The position numbers and the translations under genes were made by a program. The notes beneath the pieces are model-generated. The model was not told the DNA's origin. It was given only the letters and a program-made list of their open reading frames with translations, and did not search any database. DNA of 59,663 nt, filler included, from Dimargaris cristalligena (taxonomy: Eukaryota): assembly GCA_003614675.1 (NCBI GenBank). It is 2 parts of 2 records of this genome, joined end to end, with 100 filler letters (N's around TTAATTAATTAA, not from the genome) between each part and the next. Parts side by side here need not be neighbours in the genome. Positions count along the whole stretch, not along the records: positions 1 to 29,800 come from ML002472.1; 1 more part is not named here. One strand, written 5' to 3'. Shown one piece after another: positions 1,477 to 36,255 of this stretch. Within the stretch, counting starts at the first letter, position 1; each line of letters starts with the position of its first letter.

Positions 1477-3660
1477 ATGCAGGCTGCTCGTCGAGTTCTA
1501 TTACCCACCGCCCGGGTGACGACCACCATCCACCGTTCCGTGATCGCACCGGTCTCTACTTCTTACACACCTTATCTATCCTTCGTCCGTTCCTCTGGCC
1601 TGACCAGTGTGCGACTATTCTCTGTCGGTCCCTCATTCTTAGCTCAAGCGACCCAAGCTGCTGCAGTGGCCACCCCAACCGAAATACCATCTACTTCCGC
1701 ATCCACCCAGTCCCAGACCCCTGTCGATATGATTCACCGCTCTCCTCACCCTCCCGTTGACATTCCGCTCGTTAGTATACCGGCGTTTCTCAACCACCAC
1801 CTGGACAACTCGCCCTATTGGAGTGATCCCCAACGCCCCGTCTATATTGATGGCACATCCGGCGAGGTACTCACTATCACTGAATTTCGGGCGGGTATTC
1901 GGGCAATTTCCGCCGGATGGCGGTCCCGCGCTGGGCTTCAAAAGGGCGATGTAGTCGCCGTGGTAGCCCCTAATGATGTAGGTGCACTCTCCACATAGTA
2001 CATTCTGGAATAATTGGCATGGTTTACCGATAGTAGCACCCCAAATTACTCCAATACACGATGAATACGAGGAATACCGCAATTAAAAAGCTTAAACTCG
2101 GATGATTAATTTATTTTACTATTACTCTTCTTATTATTATTGGCCACCTGCTGGAATCGCCCATACTTCCCACACTTTGACTAATTTCTCCCACCAAATT
2201 AGATTTACTACTCCACCGCCATTTTTAGCGTTCTCTCCGCCGGAGGCACTATTTCGCCAATCAACCCCGCCTACACCGTGAACGAAATGGTGTATCAGTT
2301 AACTGATTCGGGGGCAAAATATATTGTGGTGGACACTACCCTGGTGGACCATATCCGCCGGGCGGCCACCGAAGTCGGCATCCCCACTGACCGTATTTAC
2401 ACCTTGCAAAAGACCGACGACTCCGCCAGCCTCCATTCGCTTCGCATCAACCCGACTCACCCCTCACTAGCTCACCACCATGCGGGGGAGGAACTCCTGA
2501 CGCCCACTGAACTCCACCACCAACCGGCCTACCTGTGCTACTCATCCGGCACCACTGGGCGTTCCAAAGGGGTCGTCACGTCGCACCAGAACATTGTGGC
2601 TAACTTAATCCAAGTCGACACCCACCAGCGGCAGGAACAACAGAGTCACGCGGGCCAAGTCCTAGCGGGAGTCCTACCTTTTTACCACATTTACGGACTC
2701 AACATGCTCATCCATCTCACGTTGGTGCAGGGCAGCACGGTAGTGGTCACCCGCAAATTCGACCTCCAAACCTTCCTGGCCGGTATCCAAAAATACCGCA
2801 TCAATTTCGCCTACTTGGTACCCCCCATCGTGCTGCAACTGGTGAAACACCCTTCCGTAGCTTCGTACGATCTCTCGTCGCTCCGCGGTATCGCGTCGGG
2901 CGCGGCCCCCCTCTCGGTATCATTGGCCCGCGACATCATCGCCCAATACGGTTTAGATGTCACCCAAGCATTCGGTATGACCGAATCCTCACCAATTTTG
3001 TTTCTGTCCCGCCATGCCAACCGTAATTTAGACGCCATTGGGGTACCCATCCCTTCCGTCGAGGCCAAAATCATCGACCCCGTTGACGGTCAGCTTCTGG
3101 GACCCCATCAGCATGGGGAAATCTGCGTACGGGGACCTAACATCATGCGCGGGTACTGGAACAACCCCGCCGCGACGGCGGCTACCATTGATGCGGAGGG
3201 ATTTTTGCGGACGGGCGACGTGGGTTACGTGAACGAATCCGGGGAATTCTTTATTTCGGATCGGTTGAAGGAACTCATCAAATATAAGGGGTTCCAGGTG
3301 GCTCCGGCGGAATTGGAGGCCGTAGTTATTCAGCATCCCCGCGTAACGGACGTTGTCGTGATTGGAGTGTACCAGCCCGAACAGGCCACTGAAGTGCCGC
3401 GGGCGTACGTGGTGATTAAACCGTCCACATCAACATCGGATTCGGAATTGATCGAAAGTGATAAAGTTGCTCTGGCCCAAGATATCATGGGATTCGTTAG
3501 TGGACAAGTAGCACCCCATAAGAAACTTCGCGGCGGCGTGTTCTTTGTTGAGGAAGTGCCCAAATCATCGTCCGGCAAGATTTTACGGCAAGCCCTTCGC
3601 AAACAGCTTCAGAAACAATTGGCGGAAGAAGCCAAGGGTCTGATTAGCCCTAAGCTATAG
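1477..3660 (+). CDS. 4-coumarate-CoA ligase-like / luciferase-like AMP-dependent acyl-CoA synthetase; exons 1477-1977 and 2203-3660 (~652 aa)
   Basis: AMP-binding motif YSSGTTGRSKGV, plus LPFYHIYG, QAFGMTE, RTGDVG, DRLKELIKYKGFQVAPAELE and PKSSSGKILR. A GTAGGT...CTAAT...TAG intron (1978-2202) joins APND|IYYSTA in frame. C-terminus is -PKL. Confidence 0.93.
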
Positions 3661-5677
3661 CGATTCGCCATGGTTCAAGAATTTATTGGCCACCCCCTTT
3701 GGCACCCACGCTCTATCCTGCATCTTGCTCAGTAAAGTATTATGTACAGGTTATTATTTATTCACATCTCACGAATACGCTCTATATATTATAGCTGTAA
3801 TTAACCCATGGATCTAGACTAGTCGAATTTCACAATTAGTAGTATATTTGTTTACGCATCAACTTTATTTTATTTTATTGACATTGACATTCACACGGAC
3901 TTACAATAAACATTTTTTTTCCTCTAGTACACATACATATAAAGGATCGTCTTAGGAGATAGATTCATACCCAGGTACACTGTATTCAATGCCACCAGGT
4001 CTTAGCAAGAATGCAGTGGACTATGCTAATGGCTGGGGGATCTAAGTATGTTCATTAATATCAGTTGATAGCTAATATCCCTCCCCCCACATCTACCCGT
4101 TTCAAAAAATATACTTGGCGCCGTATCGTCGTGGTGTAAACACCAGTAGTACCAAAAATGACAAAGTTATACATCCCTGAGTAAGGCCCCTGAACCTACG
4201 CCGGAAAGGACGATTAGGCTATAGAGCCTCTGTCAAAAAGCAGTGGATCAGTAGGCGGTAAAAGGGGCTTGGGGCACAATAGAAGAAGGCCAGGTACTAA
4301 TGCCCATCATCCCCTGAACCCGCAGCACTTAATGGCCTTTGCCTGAATATCCTGATACCAAAATATTGTCGCTGAACTGGATTAACAATCAACGAGTGAG
4401 AGCAAGAGAGAGGTAGGTTGGGACTGATTAGGTTCTCTATAGCCAACTAAAAGTGCCTTGTTGCCCCTTACCTTAGCTAAGGCCCAGCCAACACGACTAG
4501 CGGTGGTCATAATTACGAACATAATATAATACTACAGGTCCTTGTGGTTGCCCAAGGCCATAATGGGGCGAAAGGGTCCGCCCCTCGAGTGACTTGAACT
4601 CGGAATAGTAAATAAGAAAACGGCGGTGAATGGCTGTTGCCTACTGTATTTGCCCTAGCAACCCAATCACACTTACACGCGCTCCCTCCCTCCCTCCCTT
4701 GCTGTTTACAAACCCCTAGGATAATTCAGGGCAAGTAGGTATTTGAATTTCGGAATTCGCTACAGTGAATAACAAATATCCTGAATTTCACTGAACGAAT
4801 CATCACTGACTGATTCGCTGGTATTATTTATCTTGAGAGCGACTACGAGCGCGCGCATACCTGGCACTACACTGAACCCTTGTTTGTATCCTTTTATTTT
4901 ATCTTCTGCTTTTTAAAGATGGTATAGTATCGCCTGCCCATTTAACCAGTCTCTCTGTATATCGGGGGGAGTGTCCCTGACCAGAACTGTAACCAGGGTT
5001 AAAGTCGTTAGTCAGTCTGGATAAGTAGTGTTTCTGGTCTAACTTGTCTATATAGCCCGAATTAGGTCAAAAAGGGGGCTAGGGTGCTTCAGTACTACAG
5101 TGCATCAGTGAGAGTAACCCTCGAACAACACAGCCGACGACTAAACTTGGGAATGACATTATACGAGATCAGCGACTGAACTGAACTGATACATTCCGCC
5201 AAGTCCGGAATGTGGTTGGGGACTGGCTTTAAGTTGGATAGGAAGCGAACAGACCACTAAATGTATAAGGTGCTTGCCCACTCACTTCCAATTCCCCCAA
5301 GATTATACTATGTACCATATAGCGATATTGAGGCTATTCAACTATTGCCTCATATAGCCAGTCATCCAGGTATAAATGGGTCGTAACATCCCTCCTCATT
5401 GAACAAGCATCTCAATTCGATTTCACCTCATTCAAGGGCTTGAAAACATTTTAGGAATCTCGTTCTTTTAGATCCTCCCCGTTGCTTCAATATAGGGACA
5501 ACCTCCACCCATTGTTCTCTAGTACTACTACTGCTCTCTTTTATGTTCATGAATCCTTGATTTTCACGATTATTCAGTTCCTATTAATAATCTACACTAA
5601 TAGTCCCTGGGCTTATCTATAGTCATATTTTAAGGATCCCTTACCGTCGCTCTAGTCCGTCACTTTTTATTTTCACC

Positions 5678-11549: not shown

Positions 11550-14500
11550 GTTAGGGTATGGAAAAGAGAGTGGGGAAGAGAAAAAGGGTATGAATGGAAA
11601 AGGGGTGAACGAAGGAGAGAAAAAGAGAGAGAGGTCGACAGACTAGACTATGAAGTACAGGGGGAAGGAGAACAGTGCAGTATATGTGTGGAACGCGAGT
11701 ATATATATATAAATATATATAGATTGGGGGACTTGAAAACTATACAGCAGAGAGAGACCCACAGATTGATGGAATAGTATAAGTAGAAGAACAAAGAAAG
11801 GAGTCCAACGAAGGGCAGCGACCGACGAATAAAATATACACAGGATACCGACGAGAATAGATGCTATGGAAACTAACTATACACCACTTCTACGAAGGGT
11901 AGCGGGTCTTTATAGGTGCGGTATTGTGTACGCCTATCGGAGAATCCTATCAACTTCCTTCCTCCACCCAGCTTGGGGCCTGTGGTATCATTATGGCCCG
12001 GGGCCTGGTCGATGGGGTGTGGTGTGGCCCCAACCTTGGTCCGCGATTCTGCAGACCTTCCGTTCCTTCTCTTTATTCGCCCGCATAGAAGAAAGATGTC
12101 TCTTCTTCTAGCCAAGGTCGCCGGTAGTTACTCTCCGTTCCCCTTTCCGCTCTATAGGTATTGGGGACTTCAGCAGATCGACATTGGGCAGCTGGTATAG
12201 GACTAAACATGGGCTCATAGAGCACAAAACAGCCCATTCCGATGTTTGGGAACCAAAAGTTCAACTCCAGGGGACATGGTTGCTATACTCCGCCCCAACC
12301 AAATCACCTATACGACAGTTATCGCTTTATACGGTTCGCAGGCCGCCAGGATGCCAATTGCTCGAGCCCCAGTACCCACCCACACACCCGTCCCGACCTA
12401 TTTAGGGGAAAATAGGGTCGTTTGGGGGCCACAAGTCAACACTGAGTCCATTAAAAATGAACTTAAATAACGTTGCCGATGGATCTCCCCCTGTGGAACG
12501 ATGACCGGGGCCTGGACCACCTCCCCCCCTTTCCGGTTCGAGCATTCCCCGGGCCTCTGGTTTTCTTACCCCAATCGCTCGCAAGAAATTTAGATTCGAT
12601 TCATTCACCCCCCCCCCTACAATCTACAGGACCACCCCCACCGAGTCCTCGGTATCCACCGCCTGATGAGCTATGGTTTAAGGGTCTTCCGCTTCCTTAC
12701 CCTTTCCCGTATGCCCCTCCAACGGTTCAAATAATAAAAGGTGAGTATCAAAGTGGGTGAATGGGTCACTTTAGGTGTACCCTTGACTGCCGCCCTGTCC
12801 CTTTGCCCATCGGTATCCCCTCACCCTTAGGAGGGAGTACCACACCTTGACCTCGTTTACCAACTATTCCACCCAACTTATACTTTAAAGTAGACCATTA
12901 TCATCTCCTCTCCTAAACAGTTCCAGACCAACTGTCGCGAAACGAGTGAATAGGTGAGTGTGGGAAGGAAACAATGACGGGTAGGCCTGGTGATCACCAC
13001 ACCCTCCCCATTCATCGGTGGAGAGTACCTTAACATTGATTGGGAATACCACCCTTAATTAGGCCTAGAAAAACGATGGACTTGCCTTTTTGCCTTGCCC
13101 TGTCTGCCTTCCCCAACCGCATCGGATTCCGCAACCCTCTTCTGTCCCATCCAACGACCACCACCATCAGCAGCAGGCCATGCAAGATACGAGGAGGAGG
13201 AGGAAGGGAGGGGGGCTGATAGATAACTTATATTGTGTCTCAGTCGCCACGCAGCCCGCCTATTCTCGCATCTTATGCAGGGTGGTGACTGGGTTTTAGA
13301 CTAATTGGCCCTCTATCTAACTCCTCTAACCCCTCAACCTCCCATATCCTTCAGCCTCGTCCATTCCAAACTAACCTAGGCTAGTCCAAGACCCAACACC
13401 CTTAGTAACACCACCAGGCAGGCGTCTCCCACGCTCAACAATACAAAAGCAACCCACTGAGTTCCTTGAAACAGGCCTCCATCGGCAAGTGACATCCTAT
13501 ATTTACCATATGAAATAACAAGCCCGACACTAATGGCCAAAACATGAGAATTAGTTTCAATGAATTGGCCGAATTACCTTATTCGATTCCCGGATTAGGA
13601 AGACTTTGGCCATTTCGTTCAGCTAACTTCCTAGGCTGATGTTCAATTTACCATGGAATCTACTACTACCCGCGACATGTCTATTACATTATATTCCCAC
13701 TCCCATTCTGCCCGCCCCAACCCAATCGGCCATGTATACCTGAAAGTGGCCAGTATCCCAAACGCCTAGCAGACTACCTATAGTCTGCCCTTCTATTCCC
13801 TCTAACTAGGAAACTCCCACTGCCCTAGACGCTGACATTTTCGCATAATGCCCAGGCTAACAGTACTACTAACAATGGGGTCGCCTTAACAAGGTCCTTG
13901 GGACCTTATCCATAGTTTATTCCTGCACGTTAAAAATAGACAACAGCCTCTCCTCCGGAATAATGCAACGTGACACTGCCATTCGTTTCACTGGTGCGTG
14001 CATCCCTATTACTTTATTCGTAACCCGTACCCCTCGGTCTGTTTAACGCAGGGCGTGGGTGGCAACATACACTTTTATTTTTGCTTGGCAAGGACCGTGG
14101 CTGATTGTTCCTGTATTCAAATCATACTTTGTGTATTTTTCGCATGCCGATCTGGTTGAATCGGTGAAACACCCAATTGTCTATATTCGGAGTATGTCAA
14201 TGGACGGTAGCACGGAAAATTAATCAAGAATATGGGCGGAAGGCCACCAAGCCCAAGATTTGATTTGTGCCAAAGTGAATTTTATTTAGAGGTAACCAAA
14301 AAACGACACCCGTTTTAACGTCGATAATGATAGTAATTTATGGACTAATGAAGCTGGGGCATTGGAGCAGTCTGTTGGGCCATCATCCTCCCGAAACCAT
14401 CGGCCCTGTGCCCTGGTTGGTGTACCTTGATTAAGGTGGTATGTACGTGGCAGCAAGGGATTGCCACCACATAAATTACTTCCAGTCCTCGACTACACTC

Positions 14501-14607
14501 ACTCACCCGACTACGACACCAGCGCCATTGAGGGCTATTGTCGTTGTATATATTCGATGGTATAATAGAGATGGGGGAGATGAACAAGGTTGGTTGTATG
14601 AGTCGTG

Positions 14608-16794
14608 CTACTCACTACGTTCGCCTGTCTGACCCCGATCCCGGTCCCGGCGCCATGCCTCGATACGTTTCTGCAAATCCAAGTCCGGCCGAATGTCCGA
14701 CCAAGACATAGGTATGCCTGTGAATGGATCTCGAGCTCGGGTGGTAGAATTAAAATAGCGCTGGAGTATATATAATACACACGGAATACAAAGTTACACA
14801 TCAAATACAGGCATAGTAGGCGGCAGTCCAATGACGAGAGTGGTGACACGTGGCGAGTTAAGGAATAACCATCTGCCCATGGAAGGGGGGGGGTGTATGT
14901 AAGGTGGCCAACCCGCATAGTATTTAACGAATTCGGTGTGGACAGTGATCGAACGATATTGGGGAGTAAGTAAGTACATGGAGTACAAACATAAAAAACA
15001 TCTCCTCTAAGAAACACGGGTAGAGAGTATAGCAGAGAGGATATTAGTAGAGTAATCACACATGTTGCCCGATGGTAACCGCTGGGGATTCTTCACCACT
15101 TCGTAGGTGAGGGCATCCAGAAAATCGGCAGGGACCACTTCCTCGACGGGGTTTGCGGTGCGCTCGTTAATTAGATGGTGTGGAGTCGGGCTATCATGGT
15201 GAGAATTGCAAATTGGCTCAGTTGGACTAGACGAAGGGGACTGAGATTCGCCTGACTTTACATATTCCTCCCCCGCACCGGTTGGGCTACTATTGGCGGT
15301 GGTGGTCATCGGTTGGTCTATTAAGCCCCACACTTGAAGTGATTGAAGAGCCACCAACGAAGGGCCGTGAACACTAGTAATGTAAAGGTCTAATCGGGCT
15401 ATCCGGTTTAGGTTCCGAGGCTCGCGTTGAAAATGGTACCATTGGATTTGGTCACCACGCTATTTCACCGTAGAGATTGGCGAAGAGTAGTGTAATTGAA
15501 TAAAAAAAACACAATGTGCGATAAAATGGGAGAGAGGTATCATAATAAAATAGGGCAAAGCTGTCGTTGTAGTTTACCGCCATTGTTAAAGAACCCAAAC
15601 CAGCTATTCTATCGAACTAGATCGGTACGTATATTATAGAATAGCTTACTGGATAGATTTCCGCTATTTGCTGACGGACATCGAAATCGGGAATAGGTTT
15701 CGAGCTACAAAGGCCTAGAATCTAGTTCAATGAATAGTTATTTTCAAACCTATCTCTATTTATATTAACCCATCGACGGCAGTAGTGAAGATTAGGGGTG
15801 GGTACGCAAGGAGCCACTAGGAAAATCAAAAATTAGACATGACTTACCCTTTGTTTATTAGTATTCGTAGGTGCCGGGACGTTGAAGGTGCCTAGGCTCA
15901 TGGGTACAGGCGGCCGAGGCTGATGGAGGGGACCAAGCGACTGAGATCCAAATTTGGTGGCATAAGGGTGGTGGTGATGACGATGCTGATGGTGGCGGTG
16001 ATGACGTTCATTATAGTGACGGTTTGGACCCGAGCTGGATGGGGCAGGTCGTGGCGCATATGTAAATTCAACTCTGACAGATCGAACACAATAATGCCCC
16101 ACCTGAGGCTGGAGACTTACCCCCCATAGATAAATGGGTGCTCTATAGTGGTTTTTATCGATAAGTTTAGTATTATAGGGTATAACGTCCGCCAAGCACA
16201 CGGAGTTGGTTAGGTTGATTGAAGAGTATGGTGAGTGTCTTTGGCTAGGCGATATGTAATTCAGCAGCAAACCGATTTTATAAACGAAATCACCGATGGG
16301 TGGTCAGACGATGTTATAATAGCAAACCTGTCTAATAGCCCACTTAACCCTCGCTTATAAATTCCTACCTAAATTCTAGACTGATTTTTACAGGCGGCTT
16401 AACAAAACTTTCGGCCATAAAACTGACGGGCTTTGACATTACATCTATAGTATCTAATAGCGCAGCACAAGTGAACAGGAGTGGGATTGGGAAGGGGGTG
16501 GGGATATAGAACTAATACAATGCTATAAGTGACTGTCCTATTTATATCTAACAATACTATGATTTGGAACTCCGGGCCGACCCGACAGGAAGGGGTGGGT
16601 ATAAGAGGCAATTGCGGGATGCCTATATAGATAGATAGATAGATATTCTTACTAGAATAGCCCAATGGGTCGCTATGGTTTGAATTAGGGACGGGTGAGA
16701 GAAGGTTCTCCACTTCATGGCCGTCCCGAGTGGGGGTGGGCTCACACGAAATGGCTTGGAGGTAATTCGGTTGGACGAGGTTAACGACATGCAT
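14608..16794 (-). CDS. UBOX5/RNF37-like U-box E3 ligase; exons 16794-16653, 16444-16369, 16142-15848, 15721-15650, 15459-15045, 14765-14608 (~385 aa); 3' end somewhat uncertain
   Basis: N-terminal DGHEVENLLS, FMAESFVKPPV and LQSLQVWG resemble the UBOX5 N-terminus. U-box reads PADFLDALTYEVVKNPQRLPSG..CDYST|IQRYF..RDPFTGIP..RPDLDLQKRIEAW. All exon phases are consistent. Confidence 0.8.
14766..15044 (-). other. U12-type (minor spliceosome) AT-AC intron, 279 nt
   Basis: 5' site ATATCCTCT at 15044; TTCCTTAAC at 14865-14857; 3' TATAC ending at 14766. Splicing joins A|TC to give DYSTIQRYF, matching U-box spacing. Confidence 0.8.
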
Positions 16795-21463: not shown

Positions 21464-22734
21464 TTTAGGGTGCGACCAATCGGCCAATTAATCTCCCTTT
21501 CCCCTTTATAACCTTACTTCGCTCTCTCTCTCTTACAGCACCTGGGAATAGTTTATCCCTTAATATTTACGTAGTTCTTCTATTCATTCGTGCCTACGTT
21601 TCTCTATCACCCACCCCTATATCGCACACATACTGGCTTATTTTTGCCCCCCTAATACTATATTATTGGGCATCCTAGTGCTTCAATACTACGAGTACAG
21701 TACACCCTCCTGTGGGAATCAATCTGTCTTTCCACACCCCCTCCTAATGTTCAGGTGAGGCAGATTCCCTCTTTTATTTTTTCGTTTACCTGATATATAC
21801 TTGGTCGGGTCTAATTAATATCACATTTGATCTCTTTTTTTTGTATCTCCTTAATCTCTTCGAGTATGGAAAGAGTTCATTCCTTTATTAGTACTACTGC
21901 CGCATCTATTGTATCAGATTGACATTATCAATCCTGCCATTTTCTCTATGTCTTTTGATCCATTTTTAATTGTGACGAATTGTAATGAACATTTATCTTT
22001 TTCTCCTTGAGATTGAGGTGTCTTTGACGTCTGAAAGTTTTTGTGAAGGAATGATGCGTGCGCCGCCATAGCCGAGGGCGATATTCAATGTTATGGGAGC
22101 TTACTTTCCTCTGGCCAGTTAAACTAACTTTTAGTACACTTTTAATCCGGTCAAATATGGGTTCTGTAGCCATAGTATTTCCACTAAACTGGATAATATA
22201 AGTAGATCCAAAATATAAATGGGGAATGGCCAAAGGGCCAATAGTATATTTGAATACCAGTGTAATACTGGTGTATATGTATCACCCAGATTCGTTTTTA
22301 TATTGGTTCACATCGTCCACTCTCTTAATACATAGGATGGGACAATTCGACCAATCATCATAACCAAAAAATCTCCCAGCGCGTCATATTTTCCCCCTTT
22401 AACTTCTGGCCATTGGGTTAGGGCGATGAAAAGAGCCACACGTTTGAAAGCAATTCACCCTCATGCATTAGTGCGTTTATTTACCATCTACAGATTTCCT
22501 TCCTAACCCTTCCACGCATTGCTTCTCCCATTCTTCTCATTGACTATCAATATTTATTTACTTTTATTATCCCATTCCCCACCTATTCTTCCTGATACGC
22601 CATTGTTGGCCACAGCCCCGGTCCGCTCACCCTTGATCTCTCATTTCAGTCGCAGTCCGCCAATTCCCAATAAATTCTTCCCACAGCCCAAACCTTGTTC
22701 CCCCATTAACCCTATATATATATATATATACTCC

Positions 22735-24066
22735 ATGGAGGACATTGGCCTTTACCTCCAGGATTTCGTATCCTCACTCGACAACCTCCCCTCGGAAATC
22801 CAGCATTACTTCACCGAACTCAAAGCCCACGAACAAGAATTCCAGCAAATCCGCCGCGGCATCCACCAACGCGAAAAGACTTTCCAAACCCATCTACGAA
22901 CGCACGGTTACGCCGCTGACCAAATCCACCCCCAGGAGGCCCAGCTGATCGCCAAAAGCCACCGGGATTTCCAAAAAGCCCAGGATATCGCGGACGAGAA
23001 AACGGCCATTGCGCAGCGGGCGTTGGAATTGGTGCAACGGCACCTGAAACGGTTGGACGGGGATCTGAAGCGCCACGAACAGGAAGAGAAACACCAGCGC
23101 GCGGGTGGAGGAGGAGGATCCATGTCGTCGGCCTTGCATGGTTATGCTAACAGTGGTAGTGGCAGTGGTACCCCCGGGTCGATGGGCTGGGGCGGGAGGC
23201 TGAATAGCAGCACTCTGCATTCGTACGGCGGTGGATCTCAGTCGGCGTTGTACCGGGCGGGAACTGCATTCGATTCTACTTCAGGCGGCGGTGGCGGGGG
23301 CGCACCCGCTACCCCGGCCACTCCACTGGCCTTCGGTACGGCGGCGGGTCGGACCCTGGACGCGTCATATTTGGGCACCCCTACTCCCTTCGCAACTGGT
23401 GGGACGTCGCTCGCAGCCGCTAAATCGGCGGCGGCCGGTACAGCTACTGCGGCATCATTGGCCGCGAATGAATCGTTAGCCACCCCTTCCCGCCAACAGA
23501 AACGTAAACACGGGGCTATAGCTGCGGGGGCAGGAGGTGGAGGAGCTGGGTCCACGGAGACAAGTGTGGATAACACATCTAGTGGCCTTACTTCCGTCGC
23601 TACTCCAACCACCGGTGCGGCTGGTTCAGGTCGAGCATCCACCCCCCAAGCATCCGCTTCCGCCGGGGGTGCCGGTCGGGGCCGTGGAGCGGCCACAAAA
23701 GGTCAGCGCAAACTCAAAGGACGGCAGACTGCCGCACAGGCCCAACTGGACGGACAATCAGCGGGAACCTCGTCATCGACCACGTCCACAGGGGCGACCG
23801 ACGATACGAACGGCGGAGCAGGAGGAGCCGGTGGATCCCACCAGAATATCCACATCATCGAGAACATTGACACTGCGGCCGGAATCGAACCGGACGAACC
23901 CTTGTACTGTATCTGCCAACAGGTATCCTACGGCGATATGGTGGCCTGTGATGGTAAAAACTGCCCCCACGAATGGTTCCATTACGATTGTGTGGGGTTG
24001 ACGGCGCCGCCGAAGGGAGCTTGGTACTGCGCAGATTGTTTAGCAAGTCGGAAAATGGTCAAATAG
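22735..24066 (+). CDS. ING-family (Yng2/Png1-like) chromatin protein, ING N-terminal coiled coil + PHD finger (~443 aa)
   Basis: [18 protein letters not shown]...EKTAIA...RHLKRLD and [43 protein letters not shown]. The ATG at 22735 is the likely start, not the TTG at 22519. Confidence 0.93.
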
Positions 24067-27000
24067 ATGATATATGCCCTCCCCCCTTCACCTCCACATC
24101 CCCCACTCCTCGCCTATTCCTTCTGATATTCCCATCTTTTCGCTTTATAATCCCAAGAAAATGGCATGTACTATTAGTCTCTTGCGATTTCCTATGACCT
24201 GTACAGTTGTGCGCCATCCCACACCTCTAATAATCATTTGCTATTGAACTGGCTTGTGCCCATAGGTGTCATTTACTTTTAGCTGGCATGCTATAATATC
24301 CTTCTCTTCACTCCTTCACCCCCACCTTCTACCTGTATATTTACATTCAGCCATTATTACTTGGCTATTTCCCCTTTTTTTTCTGACGTATCCCATACCA
24401 TTGATATTTCGCTAGTTTACTATGTTTATCCTGGCCAGTCGGTGTGCACATTAAGTACCTCTTTTTACCTGGTTGTTGTCTTAATGCTTACCGTCATTGA
24501 TGCCGGTCCCCATTATTATAAACGCTGGTTTTCAAATATACTATAATGGTTGTACTCTAGTTTGTTCTCCCCCCCAGCTAAGGCAATGTAATGATTAATT
24601 TCGGGTGTTTGAGTTGTAGGAAATCAGTGGCGCGAATTTGGGTGTTGTATTCAGTGGGCACCTACAAAATAATAGCGGCTCTACTGTTATTGGTTTCATT
24701 TATGAAACTGGCGGATAGAGGTGGATCGTTTATAGATATCTCAATGAACTCGCATTTATCCAATCTGCCCCCCCTCGACCTTTCATTTCGGCCATGCTCT
24801 GTCATTGTAGTATTCTTTTTCCGTTTAAACCGGGTTGCTATGAACCAAGGTACGCCTGTCAGATACATGAAACAACACAGTATCCTGTTCTCCTATCCAA
24901 TCCAATATACTCGTTGTTCCCTCACCCTCCTCCTAACCCTCTCCTAATATACGTTGTCGGGACATAGCAAAGGTTCACCTGGCCGATTTTGGACGATTAC
25001 TCGGCAATCTTAGCTCTAATCCCCCTTCGGAAATCGTGACCCATACACACCAGGAGAGTGAATATCCCTCTACTTTAGATCAACCCATCTTTGGGCATCA
25101 TTTTTCAATCTATATGACTATAGATTTTGTGGCTGGCCTGCACACTACTACATTGAACACAGTGGGGGATATATAAAATGATTAACCCCATCTCTCTTTT
25201 CTCCGCTTCACACTACCATTCTATCCAATACCAATTAATGCCGGAGAAGGGAAATGAGAAACTGATTTTGGTGGTTGATCAATCCCATTTTCTGCCTATA
25301 ACGGTACTTTTCACACAGGCACTTGGCTATCTTGCTATCTCTTCTTGTCAACGCGTATTTGTCTAGAAAATTGAGACAAACCCATGTAAATCACCACGCC
25401 TGTTCGTTGAACTTTTTCTCTTAATCCTTCCCTCATGGGGGGCCCATAGTAGCCATGGTAGTCGTTTCTTGGTAACGTCCGAATATTGAGTGTTGGATTG
25501 TCACCAACTGCACACTCCCCCCTGGGGTGGCGCTAGAAAAATTAGTGACCCGGGTCACTGTTAAAGGGATCATTAGTTTAAGTAATGTTATATTCAGATG
25601 TCATTTCCCTTTTTATGAACCACTAGAGTGACTCAGCTTCGTTATCATTCAACGTCCAATGATGAGTACGAGTGTTATTGTTCAATAGCGTGGTGCACCA
25701 GCTGGAGAGGCTCCGGGGGAGTCGGGAACGTGGTTGCCATTTCCTCTTCCCTCCCCACATCCATCTCCATCACTCCGATAGACCTTGTCAGGTCCTAATT
25801 CTACGCATCTATATGGTGGGAAAGGTCTAATCTCCTTGGCGCATTCGACTATTCACCAAAGGTTGCTCTTATGGTAAATATTCCCCCGAGCCGCCCTCCG
25901 ATGGCATTAAAACCTTTCCACCCCAAACACAGGTTTCCCCTTAGTTTTCTCCGTAGAACTTGGTAGGTGCCCATGTCGCTATAAACTACATTTCGGACAA
26001 CCCCCAAGCTCATCCAAATCCATGTTTTTTTTTGTATTACTTTTCTAATTCGGTTGGAGATTGGGGATACCAGGGTCGTATCATTTCTAAAGGGCATGAT
26101 ACCCCAGCTGGGGCTCTCTATGTTCCTTTTCTTTGGTCTTTGCATCACCTGTCACTTTCTATGGACTTCCCCTCAATTTCTTCACGATATGTATACCATG
26201 CTTCATTATTCGTCAAATACCACCCCGGCTATTTCCACACCGAATATTGGCTAATCCCCACTAAGATTGACTCACTCCATTACTGAAAATAGTAATGAAT
26301 ACCCCATTTCACTGGTTATCCTTGCTAAGTATGAAGGAGACTGAGGCGGAGAGACCCTGTAGTCAAGGATTGTGCACTTCTAACCCCGAGATCTTAAGGC
26401 TCCGTATTCTAATTTTATATACAGGTACAGTTGATCGCCGCGGCTCAATGCTATGTATTAGGATCGTGCCGTCAATCTCATCACCCTGGTTTGTGCTTAT
26501 CCTTTTTACACACCGCCAATATCCAAGTTGGGATATACCATAAGATCCGCATGCTCAATCTTCCCGTTTCAAACTGAATAGTGATCGTGGCCACCGCGGC
26601 CAGTAAGGTGGAGATTGGATACGGATGCTTTAAAAAAACGGAGCCTAGTTAACAATGACCACATGAATAGAGCCATCATAACTATAGTAGAATGGCAGAT
26701 GAGGGTGCGCGTCTCTTTCCGGTTTGGATGGTCGTGTGGGGGGCCATCTTGGATCGACCAGGGGGAGTAGCGGTAGCTCCTTATTAGTCTTTAGGTGGAC
26801 TACTCAAGTCAACGAGTAAGGGACGTTATGGGGAAGGAGAGGGGGGAGCAGAACCTCGTTGGTACCTGCAAGGCACCCTCCAGAAATGAATTTAAATAAG
26901 GCACCCCACCCTCCATTACTTCTGAATGATTGCCTACCCGATTCCTTATCCAATATTCCCGACCCCCTTCTTTCCTTGTTAACCCCATAGTAGCCCACTA

Positions 27001-31153: not shown

Positions 31154-33577
31154 TTAATCCACCTTGTTGAGGTTATCCGCGGGCTTAGGGACCACCACCG
31201 TAGGCTTGGCCAGCATATTGGTACCTTTACTCAGCCATGGCGAGTCGGCGGCCGCCTTAATCTCGGTGGGGTCCATGGGGGGAACCTTGCAGTCGAAGTC
31301 CCAAGACTTGAACCAGCGGGCAGCCTCGCACTTGGGCCGGGTCCACACGGTACCGTAGGCCAGGGGACTGAAGATGTGGAAGTAGCGGAGGGCCAGCAAC
31401 GCCACCACCCCGAAAACCAAGTAGCGGGTGCGTTTCTGGACTCGGGCGGTCACTGTGTCCAGGCTGTAGACCAACACCAGGAGGGCCATGTAAAGGGCCG
31501 GCAGGTAATGGTGCAGGAACAGTTGCCGCTGCATGATGAAGAAGGGCATGTAGTGGAAGAACCAGGCAGTGAAGGCAAAGCCGGTCGTGTAGGTGAACTG
31601 GCTCCGGAGCGAGCCCCATTTGGTGGAGGTGACGCCCCGCAGATCGGTGAAATGCAGCACCACTTGGGCGACAGCATAGGCCACGACAGCGATGGAACTG
31701 ACCCACCAAACGAAGGGATTGCCGAAGAGGTAGATTTGGCGGTTGTCGGCGCTCCAGAAGGAGATACCGCGGCGCAGGATAGGCCACGACTCGGGACGGG
31801 AGTCAAAGGGATGGGTGCTGGTTAGTCCGTTGTTAACGTTGAACATGACCCGGGTGCTTTCAATCACCTTGGACAACAGACCGGGGGGGCTGTAGCGCAC
31901 CTTGACGGCATCGGCGGGCATGTCGGGGTGACGGTTGGTAACAATACGCCAGGTACTCTTGGGTTTCTTGGCCTCCTTCATACAAATGACCTCAGTCTGG
32001 TTGAATCCCCACGAGGGCAGTTTCTTCTCGTTCGAAAAGAGGGCACAGCCCAGTTGGGTGTGAATGAGGCGGAACTTGGTCTGGATAGCCATGAGACGGT
32101 CCTTGGTGGTCGAGTCGGAGTTGGTGGAATCCAGGATTTCCACTCGCCATTCGTCGTTGGCGTCACCGGCGAAGCCCTTCCAGCCGTATCCGCTCACTTC
32201 ATTTTCATAGTCGGCCTTGGAGATGGGACCCCGCACGTCGTGACTGTGCAGGCGGCGGTCGGTACTAATGTGAACCAGACGCACCACATCCCCGTTTTTC
32301 ACCCGCTCCAGGTCGTGTTTGGTGTCGTTATGCTCCAGCTCGGTCAGGGTGCGGCTCTTGGTAAGACGGAAGACGTTATTCTCGTCACGGTGGGGGTAGA
32401 GGGTGATTTGCTGCTGCTTGCTGCCGTCGGGGTAACTGTGGGCGTGGGAGTGGAGGTAGCCCTTATTAGAGGCCTCGTGGCGGATGGTGACCTCGGAACC
32501 GTAGTAGATATCGCGGAAGGTCTCGCCCTTGAATCCGCCCCGCAGGGTAGACTGGAACTCGGGACTCATGAAACCGGCACCGTCGCCGTGGCGGCTCAGC
32601 ACCATAAAGTGGATTTGGAAAATCAGGACATAGACCACCAGGGGTAGCATGATCAGGCACAGAGCCCGTCCAGCGAGCTGGGCCCCGATTTCGCGGGGAG
32701 TGATGTTGATATTGGCCACCAGATCCCACAGTTGCTTAATGGTGGCTACGCCGATGGCGGCCACCAGGAACAGACCCACGTATTTGCAGCTCACGGTCAA
32801 ACCCATGCTAATACCGGTCAGGGCCAACCAGGTCCACCACCAGGGGGTGAAGGGGCGTTTCAAGTACCGACAGAAATTGGTCCACATGAGAATGGTCAGG
32901 GTGGTGAAGAAGATCAGCGGGGAGTCGAGCAGGATCAAGCGGGACTGTGTGATCAGGGCGTTTTCGAAGGTCAGGAGGGTGGCACCCAGCACCGCGGCGG
33001 CAGTGGAGTGGCCACTCTGTTTAATGGTCAGGTAGCAGATGGGGATAGTTAGCAAACCGAGGAAGGCGGGCATCAAGCGCATTCCATAGTAGGGCACCTG
33101 GGCGACCAGATAGTCCAGGCCGATTTCTTTGAAGTCGAAGCGACCGTCGTAACCAACGAGTTTGCCCATACCGGCGAACATCATTTTGGCCAGCGGGGGA
33201 TGAACGTCGAAGAAGTACGTGCCGTTGATATACTTGCCGGCGAACTTGCCGAAATGGACCTCGTCGAACACCACCTTATGGGGGTTGGACAAGTTCCAGA
33301 GGCGGAAATAGGCGGCCACCAGAGTCAGCAGGCCGATAATAAGGAGCTGGGTCTGGCTGAACTGGCCGAGAAAGCGGTGGCCCCCTTTGGCGTGGGTCCC
33401 GCGGCCACCACCGGAGGCGGCCGAACCGAGGGAACCGGAAGGACCGCGGCCCTTGCCCTTGCGAACATCGAGTTCGGGGCTGATTATGGGCTGGTTCTCG
33501 TCGTCCTCGGAGTCGGGGCCGAATATAGAGAGAGAGGGCTGCTTCCGCTGACGGATATTGTCAGAGAGGGCGGCCAT
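31154..33577 (-). CDS. PMT1: Dolichyl-phosphate-mannose-protein O-mannosyltransferase, PMT1 subfamily-like (807 aa)
   Basis: VVFDEVHFG, FFDVHPPLAKM, QSRLILLD, MIR-domain LHSH motifs, GSKQQQITLYPH, SRPESWP and RQLFLHHYLPALY; multiple TM segments. Subfamily assignment is from motif recall. Confidence 0.92.
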   Translation of the reverse strand: MAALSDNIRQRKQPSLSIFGPDSEDDENQPIISPELDVRKGKGRGPSGSLGSAASGGGRGTHAKGGHRFLGQFSQTQLLIIGLLTLVAAYFRLWNLSNPHKVVFDEVHFGKFAGKYINGTYFFDVHPPLAKMMFAGMGKLVGYDGRFDFKEIGLDYLVAQVPYYGMRLMPAFLGLLTIPICYLTIKQSGHSTAAAVLGATLLTFENALITQSRLILLDSPLIFFTTLTILMWTNFCRYLKRPFTPWWWTWLALTGISMGLTVSCKYVGLFLVAAIGVATIKQLWDLVANINITPREIGAQLAGRALCLIMLPLVVYVLIFQIHFMVLSRHGDGAGFMSPEFQSTLRGGFKGETFRDIYYGSEVTIRHEASNKGYLHSHAHSYPDGSKQQQITLYPHRDENNVFRLTKSRTLTELEHNDTKHDLERVKNGDVVRLVHISTDRRLHSHDVRGPISKADYENEVSGYGWKGFAGDANDEWRVEILDSTNSDSTTKDRLMAIQTKFRLIHTQLGCALFSNEKKLPSWGFNQTEVICMKEAKKPKSTWRIVTNRHPDMPADAVKVRYSPPGLLSKVIESTRVMFNVNNGLTSTHPFDSRPESWPILRRGISFWSADNRQIYLFGNPFVWWVSSIAVVAYAVAQVVLHFTDLRGVTSTKWGSLRSQFTYTTGFAFTAWFFHYMPFFIMQRQLFLHHYLPALYMALLVLVYSLDTVTARVQKRTRYLVFGVVALLALRYFHIFSPLAYGTVWTRPKCEAARWFKSWDFDCKVPPMDPTEIKAAADSPWLSKGTNMLAKPTVVVPKPADNLNKVD

Positions 33578-34508
33578 GGCGAAGGAGGTATATGCGTGTG
33601 CGTGGGAGGGGGGATACGGTTAAAAGTAGGGGGTCATGAGAGGCCGGCCCGTCGGGGAGTGAATCTCAGAGGTAGATGAGAAAAGCAGGGGATAGAAGAT
33701 ATATATTAGGGTTACACTGGGGTTATAGTCGGGTTCCGGACGGGCAGAGATAACGAAAAGACGAGCAGAGCACAGCCCAAGAGCCAGGGGAAGTGCAGAA
33801 GGCTGGCCAGATGAGAAAGAATGGACAACGAAAAGGAAATGAGAAAGGCAAAGAGCAAGAAGGCAACGAAGAAGAAACCCACTGAGAAGGGGCGGGGTTA
33901 AGAACAATAGCAGACTGGAGAAACGCATACAGAGACTGGTCGATCGTCCATGCAGTGGGAAAATTAAGCCTCCCCATCCATCTATACATAGGCTGGGGTG
34001 CTGATCTAATAATGTCTTGGTTAAGTTCCAGGCGGATCCGTTCTGCCCCACCCCTGGCTGGCCCTAGACGCTGCAGCATCCGCCGGGGCGTCGGAATGCC
34101 TGCCACAACACCTTCTCCCGTTGGCCCATTGGCTACACCTTCGTGCGTTGGCCCTGCGAGTCCGCTAAACTCCGATTCAGGGGCTCGTTCAGACTAATTG
34201 CTCGCTCGATTTTTAGCCACAATCAGCTCTATAATTCACCTTGATTTGCCACTGTGAAACATTGAATCAAACTAGATCAATCCTGACCAGATATTCCCCC
34301 CTCTCAATTACCCTGTGATATGTGCACGGGGACTGGTGACAGCCAAATAATGCCACCAGATCACTATCAGATACTCGCACACCACCTTATCAAAAGCCCT
34401 GTGAATTAAATTCGGTATATATTAATTAATATATATATATATAAATAGCAATCTATCTAAAGAAATATCTAACTAGCTTCAATCGGTCTAGGCATATCCA
34501 CCTCTCAC

Positions 34509-36255
34509 CTACGCCTTATCCGGGAATGAAACTTCAATCACCGCGAACTTGCCATTGACCATCCATTTAGGGTCTCGTTTATCCAGCTCCTCGCCCTGGC
34601 CGGGCTGTAATCCCACCATGAGGTCGCACTTGGACGTGCGTAAACTCACCACCGGCAACTGGGTTCCCACCTGGGCCAGGGGTCCCAAAGCAGTCGAAAA
34701 CGGGGTGGTCAAATCCCACTCGCAGTCGTACAGCAATTTACGGTAATTAAGATCCCCTTTAAAAATGACCGCGGCGGAATTTTGTTGGAGGTCGGCGAAA
34801 AGTGCGGCCGAGGAGGTCGTGTGGGATGATGCGCCAGGTCCGCTATTAGCCGCCGATCCGGCGGTATTAACTGGTACCGGTGCCGTTCCACGCGGCAGAT
34901 GCCAGAATGCGTAAGGGGAGGTCCAAAACGCATCGGCGCGCAGTTCCCAGCGGCCCAACATGAGGTGATCCTGCCACTGGTCGCCCAGGGTTTCGAGGCC
35001 GCCTAAATGCTCCGAGTTGGTCAGATGGGTGGCGTGCTGAAAGCGGTCCCGACAGGTTTGCACCAGCCAGTGGAAGTCGGGGATGGTGGTATCTGACACG
35101 AACCACGGAATGGCCTTGCAGTGGAACACGACTTTGCTACAGTAACCCGTGGCGACCAGCCAATGGGCGAACACCAAATCCACGAAGGACTCGAAACCCG
35201 AGTTATCCAGCACGATATCGATCCGGACGCCCGACCAGGTCCGCACTTGCGCCCACCAGGCCTCCAGGTGGTTCACCACAATGAAGCTCGAACGGTCCTG
35301 GGCGTGTCCACCTTCGCCGCCCTGGAGACTGTGCACGTCGGCCAGGTCCAGGTTAACCAGTAGGGACAGATCGGTTTTATTGCCCCACAGTGACGCCTGG
35401 GCCAGTTCCATAAAAGCCGTGTGCCGGCTGGTTTCGTCCAGCTGCATCGTGGCTTCTTGGCAGAGGGCTAGGGTTCGGTCGGCTAGAGCGGCCACCGCCC
35501 GGTCTGACGCGTGAAACGTGTCCTTTTTTTGTTCGGCAAAGTAGTCGAAATCGCGCCAGTGCGTAGTGAGAGAAAAGCACTGATAGATTCGACGGTACAT
35601 GTAGCATTCGCTAAACAGCCAAGTGGCCGAGAACCAGGTCTTCTGGGGAAAGTAGGTCTCCATGATGGAATTCCATACAAGATGATCGCCCATGTTGTCC
35701 TGCAACAGTGGCCTAAGGACCCAAATTCGTAGAAATAATGGAGTATTATGTGTGTATATATATATATAAATATATATAATCGGTTTAATACAGAGGGCTA
35801 TTGGTATGCCATAAATCTTGATAGTCTCGATTCAGCACTGTGACAGCAAAGTCACTGTGGCAGCTACGACCACTTCCGTTTTTTAATCGAACAATATATA
35901 CTATATTACGAACAGCATAGAAACCGTAGTCTAACCATCAAAATAGTGCTGGTGCTCTATCGTCTACCCAGCCTACTAAGCTAGTGGGAGATACTTACGT
36001 GAGTGGCTTGTCAGTCTGCATTTCGTAACGCAATTTGCCTAGGGCCTCGATGATCCCCTTCGCCTCCCTGATAGTATCCGCATGGGCAACGTCGTTGGGC
36101 AAAACGGAGTAGGTCCGGTAGACATGGTCGACTACCCGGGTAATTATGACCGGCAGCCGATCCTTAATGGTGAAATAGGCGAAGGTGCCCTTCTTGGTGC
36201 CGATAAGGGCCGGACGGGGCGGGCAGCTGGGTGTCACCTCGGTAGCGGTTGCCAT
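34509..36255 (-). CDS. ARMT1/DUF89 damage-control metal-dependent phosphatase; exons 36255-35999 and 35712-34509 (~486 aa)
   Basis: FAYFTIKDRLPVI, WLFSECYMYRR, LWGNKTDLS, DIVLDNSGFE, PWFVSD, FKGDLNYRKL and LRTSKCD motifs; phase-2 GT-AG intron. Confidence 0.93.

What the first reader, a model, noticed from the sequence alone, without database searches (positions are those of the whole stretch)
14766..15044. AT-AC minor-spliceosome (U12-type) intron splitting a fungal U-box domain
Seen: the U-box ORF stops after DYST, and the missing half (RYF..DPFTG..LQKRIEAW) lies ~280 nt downstream. No good GT-AG pair joins them, but ATATCCTCT...TTCCTTAAC...TATAC does, giving DYST-I-Q-RYF with normal U-box spacing. 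Known: RTATCCT 5' sites, TTCCTTAAC branch sequences and AT-AC termini define U12 introns; the minor spliceosome is absent from Dikarya but kept in some early-diverging fungi. Inference: this genome has a working U11/U12/U4atac/U6atac system, and GT-AG-only predictors would truncate this E3 ligase.
Basis: partly seen in the sequence, partly recalled or inferred. Interest (0 to 1): 0.85.

Follow-up and report, generated by a model that had tools for sequence, protein, structure and literature searches.

The report
AT-AC intron splitting fungal U-box gene
A rare AT-AC intron of the minor-spliceosome type interrupts the U-box of a UBOX5-like ubiquitin ligase gene in the early-diverging fungus Dimargaris cristalligena; this explains a wrong deposited gene model, but the intron's branch signal sits unusually far from its 3' end and no RNA data could be checked.

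Summary
The window is Dimargaris cristalligena (Kickxellomycota). On the minus strand, a six-exon, 385-aa gene (16794-14608) encodes a DUF5918 + U-box protein that aligns end to end with "RING finger protein 37" of D. verticillata. Its last intron (15044-14766, 279 nt, phase 1) starts ATATCCTCT and ends TATAC. The junction ACTA|TCCAG gives ST-IQ-RYF. All 11 homologs examined have exactly two residues at that point (VQ in the nearest), and no AG-ending intron can keep them. The gene's four other introns are all GTARGN...TAG, so the rival donors (GTTTCT, GTGATT) do not fit. The deposited model deletes the U-box core.

The perfect TTCCTTAAC lies 92 nt from the 3' AC, with six nearer ACs in between. 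The published optimum is 11-13 nt, and classifiers look no further than about 45 nt. The canonical zone holds only a chance-level match, and no hairpin bridges the gap. No genome was held and no RNA run was listed, so neither minor snRNAs nor the spliced junction could be checked. The intron position is absent in all nine relatives that have DNA.

Best reading: a lineage-specific U12-type AT-AC intron with an atypical distal branch box (confidence about 0.7).

The parts
16653..16794 (-). Exon 1 (ATG at 16794-16792), start of the DUF5918-like N-terminal region
   Evidence: tblastn of P0006 residues 5-40. Weak DUF5918 hit, E 0.0034, below cut-off. Coordinates; model is open and aligns to P0006.
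16445..16652 (-). Intron 1, U2-type, GTAAGA...TATAG, 208 nt
16369..16444 (-). Exon 2 (...FMAESFVKPPVKISLEF-)
   Evidence: tblastn of P0006 44-65 and P0007 1-19
16143..16368 (-). Intron 2, U2-type, GTAGGA...TATAG, 226 nt
15848..16142 (-). Exon 3, with a His-rich low-complexity insert relative to D. verticillata
   Evidence: tblastn of P0006 61-139; alignment
15722..15847 (-). Intron 3, U2-type, GTAAGT...AACTAG, 126 nt
15650..15721 (-). Exon 4 (ILGLCSSKPIPDF...)
   Evidence: Alignment to P0006 'YGLCCRSVI...'
15460..15649 (-). Intron 4, U2-type, GTAAGC...AAATAG, 190 nt; contains TTCTTTAAC (8/9) 126 nt from its 3' end
15045..15459 (-). Exon 5: linker plus first half of the U-box, ending ...LPSGNMCDYST and the first base (A) of a split codon
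   Evidence: tblastn of P0006 up to T282 = ACT 15048-15046. Pfam U-box profile 1-29. Ufd2/E4B U-box alignments.
14766..15044 (-). Intron 5: AT-AC intron, 279 nt, phase 1, in-frame TAG at 15009-15007
   Evidence: Junction fixed by homology; sequence
15036..15044 (-). 5' splice site ATATCCTCT (8 of 9 to the U12-type consensus RTATCCTTT)
   Evidence: consensus from passages of PMC2846911
14857..14865 (-). Perfect U12-type branch box TTCCTTAAC; second A at 14858 is 92 nt from the last intron base
14766..14767 (-). 3' terminal AC (TATAC|TC). Six other ACs lie between the box and this one, ending at 14850, 14843, 14840, 14826, 14816 and 14793.
14608..14765 (-). Exon 6: TC of the split codon (I), CAG (Q), then RYFNSTTRARDPFTG...IEAW..., second half of the U-box; stop TAG at 14610-14608
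   Evidence: tblastn of P0006 from Q284 = CAG 14763-14761. Pfam U-box profile 38-71. E4A/E4B alignments.

Best explanation
Window 15044-14766 (minus strand) is a spliceosomal intron of the AT-AC, U12-type class. It lies in the last coding junction of the Dimargaris cristalligena ortholog of UBOX5/RNF37 (DUF5918 + U-box). Removing it joins ...TCT ACT A to TC CAG CGC..., creating an ATC (Ile) codon and giving ...CDYST-IQ-RYF..., an intact Ufd2-like U-box.

Inferred mechanism. U11 and U6atac recognise ATATCCTC at the 5' end. U12 pairs with a branch sequence, for which the only U12-like candidate is the perfect TTCCTTAAC at 14865-14857. The second step then uses the AC at 14767-14766.

Shown here: the gene structure, the position and termini of the junction, the U12-type 5' motif, the misfit to the gene's own U2-type signals, and the 92-nt spacing.

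Inferred only: that the junction is used in RNA, that the minor spliceosome does it, which adenosine branches, and that this genome encodes the minor snRNAs. Because the spacing breaks the canonical rule, I file it as working like a U12-type intron and not as a fully qualified member. The intron seems specific to this lineage.
For: 1. Organism and gene. Exon sequence is 100% identical to H4R33_002137 of D. cristalligena. A word-free HMMER search with exon 6 found 5 proteins at E<=1e-3. Two are orthologs: P0006 (RING finger protein 37, D. verticillata) and P0007 (Coemansia asiatica). Both are DUF5918 + U-box.

2. Junction. tblastn puts P0006 T282 on ACT 15048-15046 and Q284 on CAG 14763-14761, leaving V283 for the split codon A|TC. 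MAFFT leaves exactly two columns between ...DYST and RYF.... All 11 of 11 homologs (P0006, P0007, L001-L009) have two residues there.

3. Model comparison, local BLOSUM62 scores against P0006/P0007:
- AT-AC: 511/271
- GT-AG 15015-14761: 486/250
- deposited model: 404/203
- micro-exon models: 481/248 and 488/258

4. There is no AG between 14872 and 14763, and a TAA at 14796-14794 closes the exon-6 frame. No AG-ending intron can therefore retain the two residues.

5. Of the four registers compatible with homology, only AT...AC is a known terminal pair.

6. The 5' end ATATCCTCT matches /RTATCCTTT at 8 of 9 positions. The chance of this in one of four registers is about 4e-4.

7. The gene's other four introns are GTAAGA, GTAGGA, GTAAGT and GTAAGC, all ending in TAG. 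ATATCC is therefore not the local U2 pattern with G1 changed to A.

8. TTCCTTAAC inside the intron has a chance of about 0.009.

9. Phase 1 and a non-G base at -1 fit the published minor-intron biases (passages).

10. Minor introns are documented in Zoopagomycota (Basidiobolus, n=249) and absent from Dikarya (PMC10639083 passages).
Against: 1. The perfect box is 92 nt from the AC. The documented optimum is 11-13 nt (PMC3584512). Classifiers search -40..-5 or up to about 45 nt. Even Physarum's altered motif stays 9-12 nt away.

2. The best match in -40..-5 is 5 of 9, the mode of random windows.

3. Six ACs lie nearer the box, at +8, +15, +18, +32, +42 and +65. The canonically spaced ones give a premature stop or a frameshift (frames read).

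4. No hairpin shortens the gap: MFE -11 kcal/mol against -18.6 for shuffles, z +2.87, and all 200 shuffles fold at least as well.

5. There is no transcript evidence and no test for minor snRNAs or minor-spliceosome proteins in this genome.

6. The intron position is absent in 9 of 9 related DNA loci. The two fungal ortholog proteins are contiguous there, so there is no support from conservation of the intron.

7. The in-frame read-through (NILS...) raises phmmer scores to Ufd2/E4B slightly: 15.2 to 15.6 bits and 13.7 to 14.8 bits.

8. The orthologs are automatic predictions, and the local U2 consensus rests on only four introns.
Confidence: 0.7

Rival explanations
1. It is a U12-type intron by descent, but it is impaired. 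The minor spliceosome pairs with the perfect box and mostly uses a canonically spaced AC (14843 or 14840, or 14850), giving frameshifted or truncated products. Alternatively the intron is simply retained (...DYSTNILSAILSTRVS*). On this reading the productive junction is rare or lost, and the gene is decaying or is held down by unproductive splicing.
For: ACs lie at +8, +15 and +18 from the branch A, and a pattern scan calls that arrangement canonical. There is no U12-like box near the distal AC. U12-type 3' site choice is described as error-prone (PMC3584512 passage). A 91-nt stretch separates the box from the 3' site.
Against: Exon 6 is an intact open frame, 46% identical to P0006 and 56% identical to P0007 over the U-box half, and it keeps DPFTG and LQxRIxxW. 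All six exons are open and colinear with the ortholog. The 91-nt stretch is not a repeat copy, and there are no terminal repeats or target-site duplication.
Confidence: 0.12
2. Same AT-AC junction, but removed by the major (U2-dependent) spliceosome, as in the rare U2-type AT-AC introns. TTCCTTAAC (which contains a yUnAy match) would act as a distant U2 branch site.
For: The long branch-to-3' distance and the roughly 110-nt AG-free zone downstream of the box are typical of U2-type introns with distant branch points (chance of such a zone is about 0.02 from intron AG density). The box also fits yUnAy (the motif quoted in a PMC11347168 passage).
Against: The 5' end ATATCC departs from the gene's own U2 donor pattern GTARG at +4 and +5 as well as +1, and matches the U12 consensus instead. 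That U2-type AT-AC introns keep a U2-like 5' consensus is recalled knowledge (Wu and Krainer 1997), not seen in any call.
Confidence: 0.07
3. An ordinary GT-AG intron from the weak donor CGT|GTTTCT (15015) to CAG|CGC (14761), using TTCCTTAAC as a U2 branch site and the first AG downstream. The product carries NILSAILSTR in place of IQ (net +8 residues).
For: It is in frame and open. CAG is the first AG after the box. The read-through residues align weakly to the Ufd2 helix.
Against: It scores lower against both orthologs: 486/250 against 511/271. None of 11 homologs has extra residues there. GTTTCT matches none of positions +3 to +5 of the four reference donors. It would also make the ATATCCTC placement and the I-Q match coincidences.
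Confidence: 0.04
4. The deposited model is right: donor T|GTGATT (15059) to acceptor cacag|GC (exon from 14717), giving a 130-aa protein (P0003).
For: It is the annotated product and uses GT-AG.
Against: It deletes the U-box core (CDYST...RARDPFTG) and scores 404/203. Its N-terminus comes from an alternative frame of exon 3 and lacks the DUF5918 region that is conserved in the orthologs.
Confidence: 0.01

Closest known systems
Canonical U12-type AT-AC introns of animals, plants and some early-diverging fungi (Rhizophagus, Basidiobolus, Rhizopus, Phycomyces)
   Same: AT-AC termini; a 5' end ATATCCTCT against /RTATCCTTT; a perfect TTCCTTAAC box inside the intron; phase 1; a single such intron among U2-type neighbours in the gene.
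   Different: The box is 92 nt from the 3' site instead of about 10-20 nt (optimum 11-13), with six ACs skipped. The position is not shared with any homolog examined. The machinery was not shown for this genome.
Transformed minor introns of Physarum polycephalum (bioRxiv 10.1101/2020.10.12.336362, passages read)
   Same: A U12-type 5' site without a canonical box in the usual place near the 3' end; lineage-specific positions that suggest gain.
   Different: Physarum has a replacement motif (TTTGA) held at 9-12 nt and a co-evolved U12 snRNA. Here no motif is evident near the 3' end, and a perfect canonical box sits far upstream.
Minor-like / hybrid introns (Olthof et al. 2024, PMC11347168, passages read)
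   Same: Mixed signals: a strong minor-type 5' site, with 3' features that do not meet the minor-type criteria.
   Different: Those classes were defined by weak position-weight-matrix scores in animals and plants, mostly with GT-AG ends. This one has AT-AC ends and a perfect but displaced box.
U2-type AT-AC introns (recalled: Wu and Krainer 1997; not seen in any call)
   Same: AT-AC termini; a long distance from branch point to 3' site would be tolerated.
   Different: Their 5' sites follow the U2 consensus apart from +1. Here the 5' site is U12-type and unlike the gene's own U2 donors.
UBOX5 / RNF37 family (DUF5918 + C-terminal U-box); U-box most similar to Ufd2/UBE4A/UBE4B
   Same: End-to-end colinearity with D. 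verticillata RNF37; U-box halves best matched by E4A/E4B/Ufd2 structures.
   Different: It has His-rich and Ser/Pro-rich inserts. The U-box is interrupted by an intron, which none of the 9 related DNA loci has.

Membership tests
U12-type (minor spliceosome) intron, AT-AC subtype | 5' splice site matching /RTATCCTTT | tested here: met
   ATATCCTCT at 15044-15036, 8 of 9 positions. Consensus taken from PMC2846911 passages and the Physarum preprint.
U12-type (minor spliceosome) intron, AT-AC subtype | AT...AC termini at the true exon junction | tested here: met
   The junction is fixed to within one codon by 11 of 11 homologs. Only the AT-AC register has known termini. This is protein-level inference, not RNA.
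U12-type (minor spliceosome) intron, AT-AC subtype | Branch sequence TTCCTTRAC / UCCUUAACU present | tested here: met
   TTCCTTAAC at 14865-14857, 9 of 9.
U12-type (minor spliceosome) intron, AT-AC subtype | Branch sequence close to the 3' site (optimum 11-13 nt; searched within -40..-5 or up to about 45 nt) | tested here: not met
   The distance is 92 nt. The best match in -40..-5 is 5 of 9, the null mode. Criteria. No bridging structure.
U12-type (minor spliceosome) intron, AT-AC subtype | No distinct polypyrimidine tract | tested here: inconclusive
   The last 91 nt are 63% pyrimidine with no obvious tract. There is no species reference set.
U12-type (minor spliceosome) intron, AT-AC subtype | Host genome encodes U11, U12, U4atac and U6atac and minor-specific proteins | not testable with these tools
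   No genome is held. There are no hits in the window at gathering score or at E<=5. No query sequence for the proteins was available from a tool.
U12-type (minor spliceosome) intron, AT-AC subtype | Excised from RNA at this junction, dependent on the minor spliceosome | not testable with these tools
U2-type GT-AG intron (as in this gene) | Donor GTARGN and acceptor YAG that preserve the homologous protein | tested here: not met
   Reference introns 1-4 are GTAAGA, GTAGGA, GTAAGT and GTAAGC, ending in TAG. Candidate donors GTTTCT and GTGATT do not fit, and no AG lies where the exon must begin.
UBOX5/RNF37 protein family | N-terminal DUF5918 plus C-terminal U-box | tested here: met
   Orthologs P0006 and P0007 hit both domains above the cut-off. 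The window model is colinear with P0006 over residues 2-380. The window's own pieces hit U-box and DUF5918 only below the cut-off, because each piece was scanned separately.

The most novel reading that the evidence does not exclude
The Dimargaris minor spliceosome really does branch at the perfect TTCCTTAAC and then joins to an AC 92 nt downstream, passing six nearer ACs. This lineage would then have relaxed the tight rule on branch-to-3'-site distance that holds in animals, plants and even Physarum. The intron would be a lineage-specific (gained) U12-type intron, because 9 of 9 related DNA loci and both fungal ortholog proteins lack it.
Probability: 0.25. Interest if true: 0.7.

Novelty: new variant of a known kind. 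Interest (0 to 1): 0.5.

Why it matters
1. It corrects a gene. The deposited D. cristalligena model (130 aa) is a chimera lacking the U-box core, while the real product is most likely a 385-aa UBOX5/RNF37-type E3 ligase. Annotation pipelines that allow only GT-AG will repeat this error wherever minor introns survive.

2. It is sequence-level evidence that minor-type splicing signals are maintained in Dimargaritales. I found no paper in the searchable library mentioning U12-type splicing for this lineage. The supplements of the pan-eukaryotic survey, which may list this species, could not be opened.

3. If the junction and the distal box are both used, the intron breaks the best-conserved spatial rule of U12-type 3' site selection. 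It would be a natural substrate for asking how the minor spliceosome measures that distance.

4. Its absence from every homolog examined makes it a candidate for U12-type intron gain, which is thought to be rare.

Tried and rejected
- **Transcript evidence.** The look-up of sequencing runs (kind rna) on 14300-15700: no RNA holder was listed, so read laying could not be used.
- **Whole genome.** None is held, so no search for snRNAs or proteins was possible.
- **Rfam on the window.** No hits at gathering score. At E<=5 there were only two unrelated weak hits.
- **Hairpin bridging box and 3' site.** Rejected: the segment is less structured than all 200 shuffles.
- **Proximal U12-like box.** Rejected: 5 of 9, chance level.
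- **Micro-exon models.** A U12 intron ending at AC 14850, followed by a 41-nt or 14-nt exon and a GT-AG intron to 14761. Both are in frame but insert 14 or 5 residues that no homolog has, and they score lower.
- **Nested intron between box and 3' site.** Impossible for GT-AG, since there is no AG there.
- **Register shifted by one base (AA...TA).** Scores nearly the same (509/269) but has no known termini.
- **Mobile-element insertion.** No repeat copies in the window or loci, no terminal inverted repeats, no target-site duplication.
- **Other U12-like sites in the window:**
  - 26536(-)/26368 has no coding context.
  - 4886(+)/5554 has canonical spacing but lies upstream of a start codon with no coding support. 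Full arrangements in the window number 2, against a simulated mean of 0.47; 24 of 300 simulations reach 2 or more.
- **First ORF-joining heuristic for donor statistics.** Too noisy.
- **Word-based homolog searches.** These returned only the deposited model.
- **Literature.** No paper holds:
  - Dimargaris + minor spliceosome
  - Kickxellomycotina + U12
  - UBOX5 + U12-type
  - UBOX5 + minor intron
  
  Among the 15 top-ranked of 608 papers, none held Dimargaris or Kickxellomycotina.
- **Earlier findings of this scan.** Nothing was found.
Full report
**What is in the sequence.** Read on the minus strand, the open frame encoding ...VPADFLDALTYEVVKNPQRLPSGNMCDYST continues 12 codons (NILSAILSTRVS) to a TAG at 15009-15007. 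From 15044 the sequence is ATATCCTCT. TTCCTTAAC lies at 14865-14857. TATAC ends at 14766 and is followed by TC CAG CGC TAT TTT..., which encodes RYFNSTTRARDPFTG...IEAW. The two pieces each hit Pfam U-box: profile positions 1-29 (E 0.0019) and 38-71 (E 0.0025), each below the curated cut-off alone. Each is best matched among solved structures by the U-boxes of Ufd2, UBE4A and UBE4B. The exceptions are that the frame does not stop right after DYST, and that the distance between TTCCTTAAC and TATAC was not stated.

**Organism and gene.** A word-based search with the exon 5 product found one protein, H4R33_002137 of Dimargaris cristalligena, with a 100% identical segment. D. cristalligena belongs to Kickxellomycota, Dimargaritales. 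A word-free HMMER search with exon 6 gave 5 proteins at E<=1e-3:
- the deposited model;
- a repeat protein, P0004, which I regard as spurious;
- a JGI protein with four tandem U-boxes, P0005;
- two orthologs: P0006 (KAJ1979954.1, "RING finger protein 37", D. verticillata, 330 aa) and P0007 (KAJ2871022.1, Coemansia asiatica, 261 aa).

Both orthologs are DUF5918 + U-box, and the U-box matches the Pfam profile in one uninterrupted stretch.

tblastn of P0006 on the window, plus inspection, gave a six-exon model on the minus strand: 16794-16653, 16444-16369, 16142-15848, 15721-15650, 15459-15045 and 14765-14608. The model is 385 aa, has no internal stop, and aligns over residues 2-380 to P0006 residues 4-326.

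**The junction.**
- P0006 T282 falls on ACT 15048-15046 and Q284 falls on CAG 14763-14761. V283 must therefore come from a codon split by the intron: A|TC = Ile.
- An independent MAFFT alignment of P0006, P0007 and the two window pieces leaves exactly two columns between ...CDYST and RYF... (VQ and VA).
- A metagenome scan with the P0006/P0007 alignment returned 9 related loci. In all 9, tblastn runs uninterrupted through this point with two residues there (LD, LE seven times, WM). That makes 11 of 11 homologs with two residues.
- Spliced models were assembled by coordinates and scored against P0006/P0007:

| Model | Score vs P0006 / P0007 |
|---|---|
| AT-AC | 511 / 271 |
| One-base-shifted AA...TA register | 509 / 269 |
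| GT-AG 15015-14761 | 486 / 250 |
| Micro-exon, 14 nt | 488 / 258 |
| Micro-exon, 41 nt | 481 / 248 |
| Deposited model | 404 / 203 |

- No AG occurs between 14872 and 14763, and the exon-6 frame is closed by a TAA at 14796-14794. No AG-ending intron can keep the two residues.
- Of the four registers that keep T-x-Q, only one has known termini: AT...AC.

**Which spliceosome.** The four other introns of this gene begin GTAAGA, GTAGGA, GTAAGT and GTAAGC, and all end in TAG. Intron 5 begins ATATCCTCT. That is 8 of 9 to the U12-type consensus /RTATCCTTT (passages of PMC2846911). It differs from the local U2 pattern at +1, +4 and +5.

In the window the 8-mer RTATCCTY occurs 12 times on both strands, against 9.7 expected. 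The motif is therefore not enriched overall. The chance of one falling in any of the four homology-allowed registers is about 4e-4. TTCCTTRAY occurs 4 times against 2.4 expected, and the chance of one within a 279-nt intron is about 0.009. Phase 1 and a non-G at -1 agree with the published minor-intron biases. Minor introns are reported in Zoopagomycota (Basidiobolus meristosporus, n=249) and other early-diverging fungi but not in Dikarya (PMC10639083, passages). These points make a U12-type assignment the best reading.

**The anomaly.**
- The second A of TTCCTTAAC (14858) is 92 nt from the last intron base.
- The review literature gives an optimum of 11-13 nt and calls the distance an important recognition factor (PMC3584512).
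- Classifiers look only in -40..-5 (PMC2846911) or -45..-5 (Physarum preprint).
- In Physarum, where the branch motif itself changed, it still sits 9-12 nt from the 3' site.
- In the -40..-5 zone of intron 5 the best match to the box is 5 of 9, the mode of 20,000 random windows.
- Six ACs lie between the box and the homology-supported AC, at +8, +15, +18, +32, +42 and +65. Using +8 leads to a TAA after 18 codons. Using +15 or +18 shifts the frame (read).
- The intervening RNA does not fold to bring the sites together: MFE -11 kcal/mol, shuffles -18.6 +/- 2.7, z +2.87.
- The stretch is not a repeat, and the intron has no terminal repeats or target-site duplication.

One defining feature of the family is thus tested and not met. 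For that reason I describe the intron as working like a U12-type intron and rate it as a variant, not a plain member.

**What could not be tested.** No genome is held for this window, and the window has no minor snRNA gene. No sequencing run could be laid on the locus. I found no paper in the library that mentions Dimargaris or Kickxellomycotina together with U12 or minor splicing, or UBOX5 together with U12-type or minor introns. Supplementary tables of the pan-eukaryotic survey may list this species but were closed.

**Conservation of the intron.** The position is uninterrupted in 9 of 9 related metagenomic DNA loci of unknown taxa. It is also contiguous in the two predicted fungal ortholog proteins, whose DNA I could not see. 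The intron therefore appears lineage-specific. Whether that reflects gain in Dimargaris cristalligena or loss elsewhere cannot be decided here.

**The deposited annotation.** P0003 (130 aa) joins T|GTGATT (15059) to cacag|GC (exon from 14717). This removes CDYST...RARDPFTG. Its N-terminus is taken from another frame of exon 3, and it lacks the DUF5918 region. No other protein in the 5.8-billion-sequence collection carries exon 6, so no correct model of this gene appears to be deposited.

**Verdict.** Most likely (about 0.7) this is a lineage-specific AT-AC, U12-type intron in the D. cristalligena UBOX5/RNF37 ortholog, with an unexplained 92-nt gap between its perfect branch box and its 3' site. 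The rivals are:
- an impaired or mostly unproductive U12-type intron (0.12);
- major-spliceosome AT-AC splicing (0.07);
- the weak GT-AG alternative (0.04);
- the deposited model (0.01).

Noticed in passing
window 14717-16116 (-), deposited protein P0003 (H4R33_002137): The deposited 130-aa model is a chimera. Its N-terminus is an alternative reading frame of exon 3, and its last intron (15059 to 14718) deletes the U-box core. Exons 1, 2 and 4 of the ortholog-supported model are missing.
   Followed up: yes
window 4886-5577 (+): GTATCCTTT (9 of 9 to the U12 5' consensus) at 4886, TCCTTGAT at 5554-5561, and a CAG 17 nt after the branch A. This is a canonically spaced U12-type GT-AG arrangement of 692 nt, ending about 100 nt upstream of the ATG (5679) of a secreted low-complexity protein. 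It could be a 5'-UTR minor intron, but there is no coding or RNA support, and the window-wide count of such arrangements (2) is reached in 24 of 300 simulations.
   Followed up: partly
window 15460-15649 (-), intron 4 of the same gene: This GTAAGC...TAG intron contains TTCTTTAAC (8 of 9 to the U12 box) 126 nt from its 3' end. Probably chance.
   Followed up: no
window 15848-16142 (-), exon 3: A His-rich run (HHRHHQHRHHHH) and other low-complexity inserts are present relative to the D. verticillata ortholog. The Ser/Pro-rich linker in exon 5 is also longer.
   Followed up: no
window 26368-26536 (-): ATATCCCAA with TCCTTGAC 168 nt downstream, in an AT-richer stretch without long ORFs. There is no gene context, so it is treated as chance.
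   Followed up: partly
window 2203-3660 (+), 22507-24066 (+), 31154-33619 (-), 34509-35831 (-), 40610-46060 (-), 51472-54543 (+), 55653-56873 (-): Neighbouring genes by Pfam: AMP-binding enzyme; ING/PHD protein; protein O-mannosyltransferase (PMT/MIR); ARMT1-like phosphatase; Rax2-like protein with C-terminal SH3 (1816-aa open frame); RING + SAP protein; cofilin/PH protein. This is ordinary fungal gene content with long exons.
   Followed up: partly
P0005 (JGI/IMG metagenome protein, 397 aa): A protein made of four tandem U-box repeats, each close to the exon-6 sequence type (…SETCPVTGYPMNDSDLIPDRLLEHKILLWRKNN). This is an unusual multi-U-box architecture.
   Followed up: no
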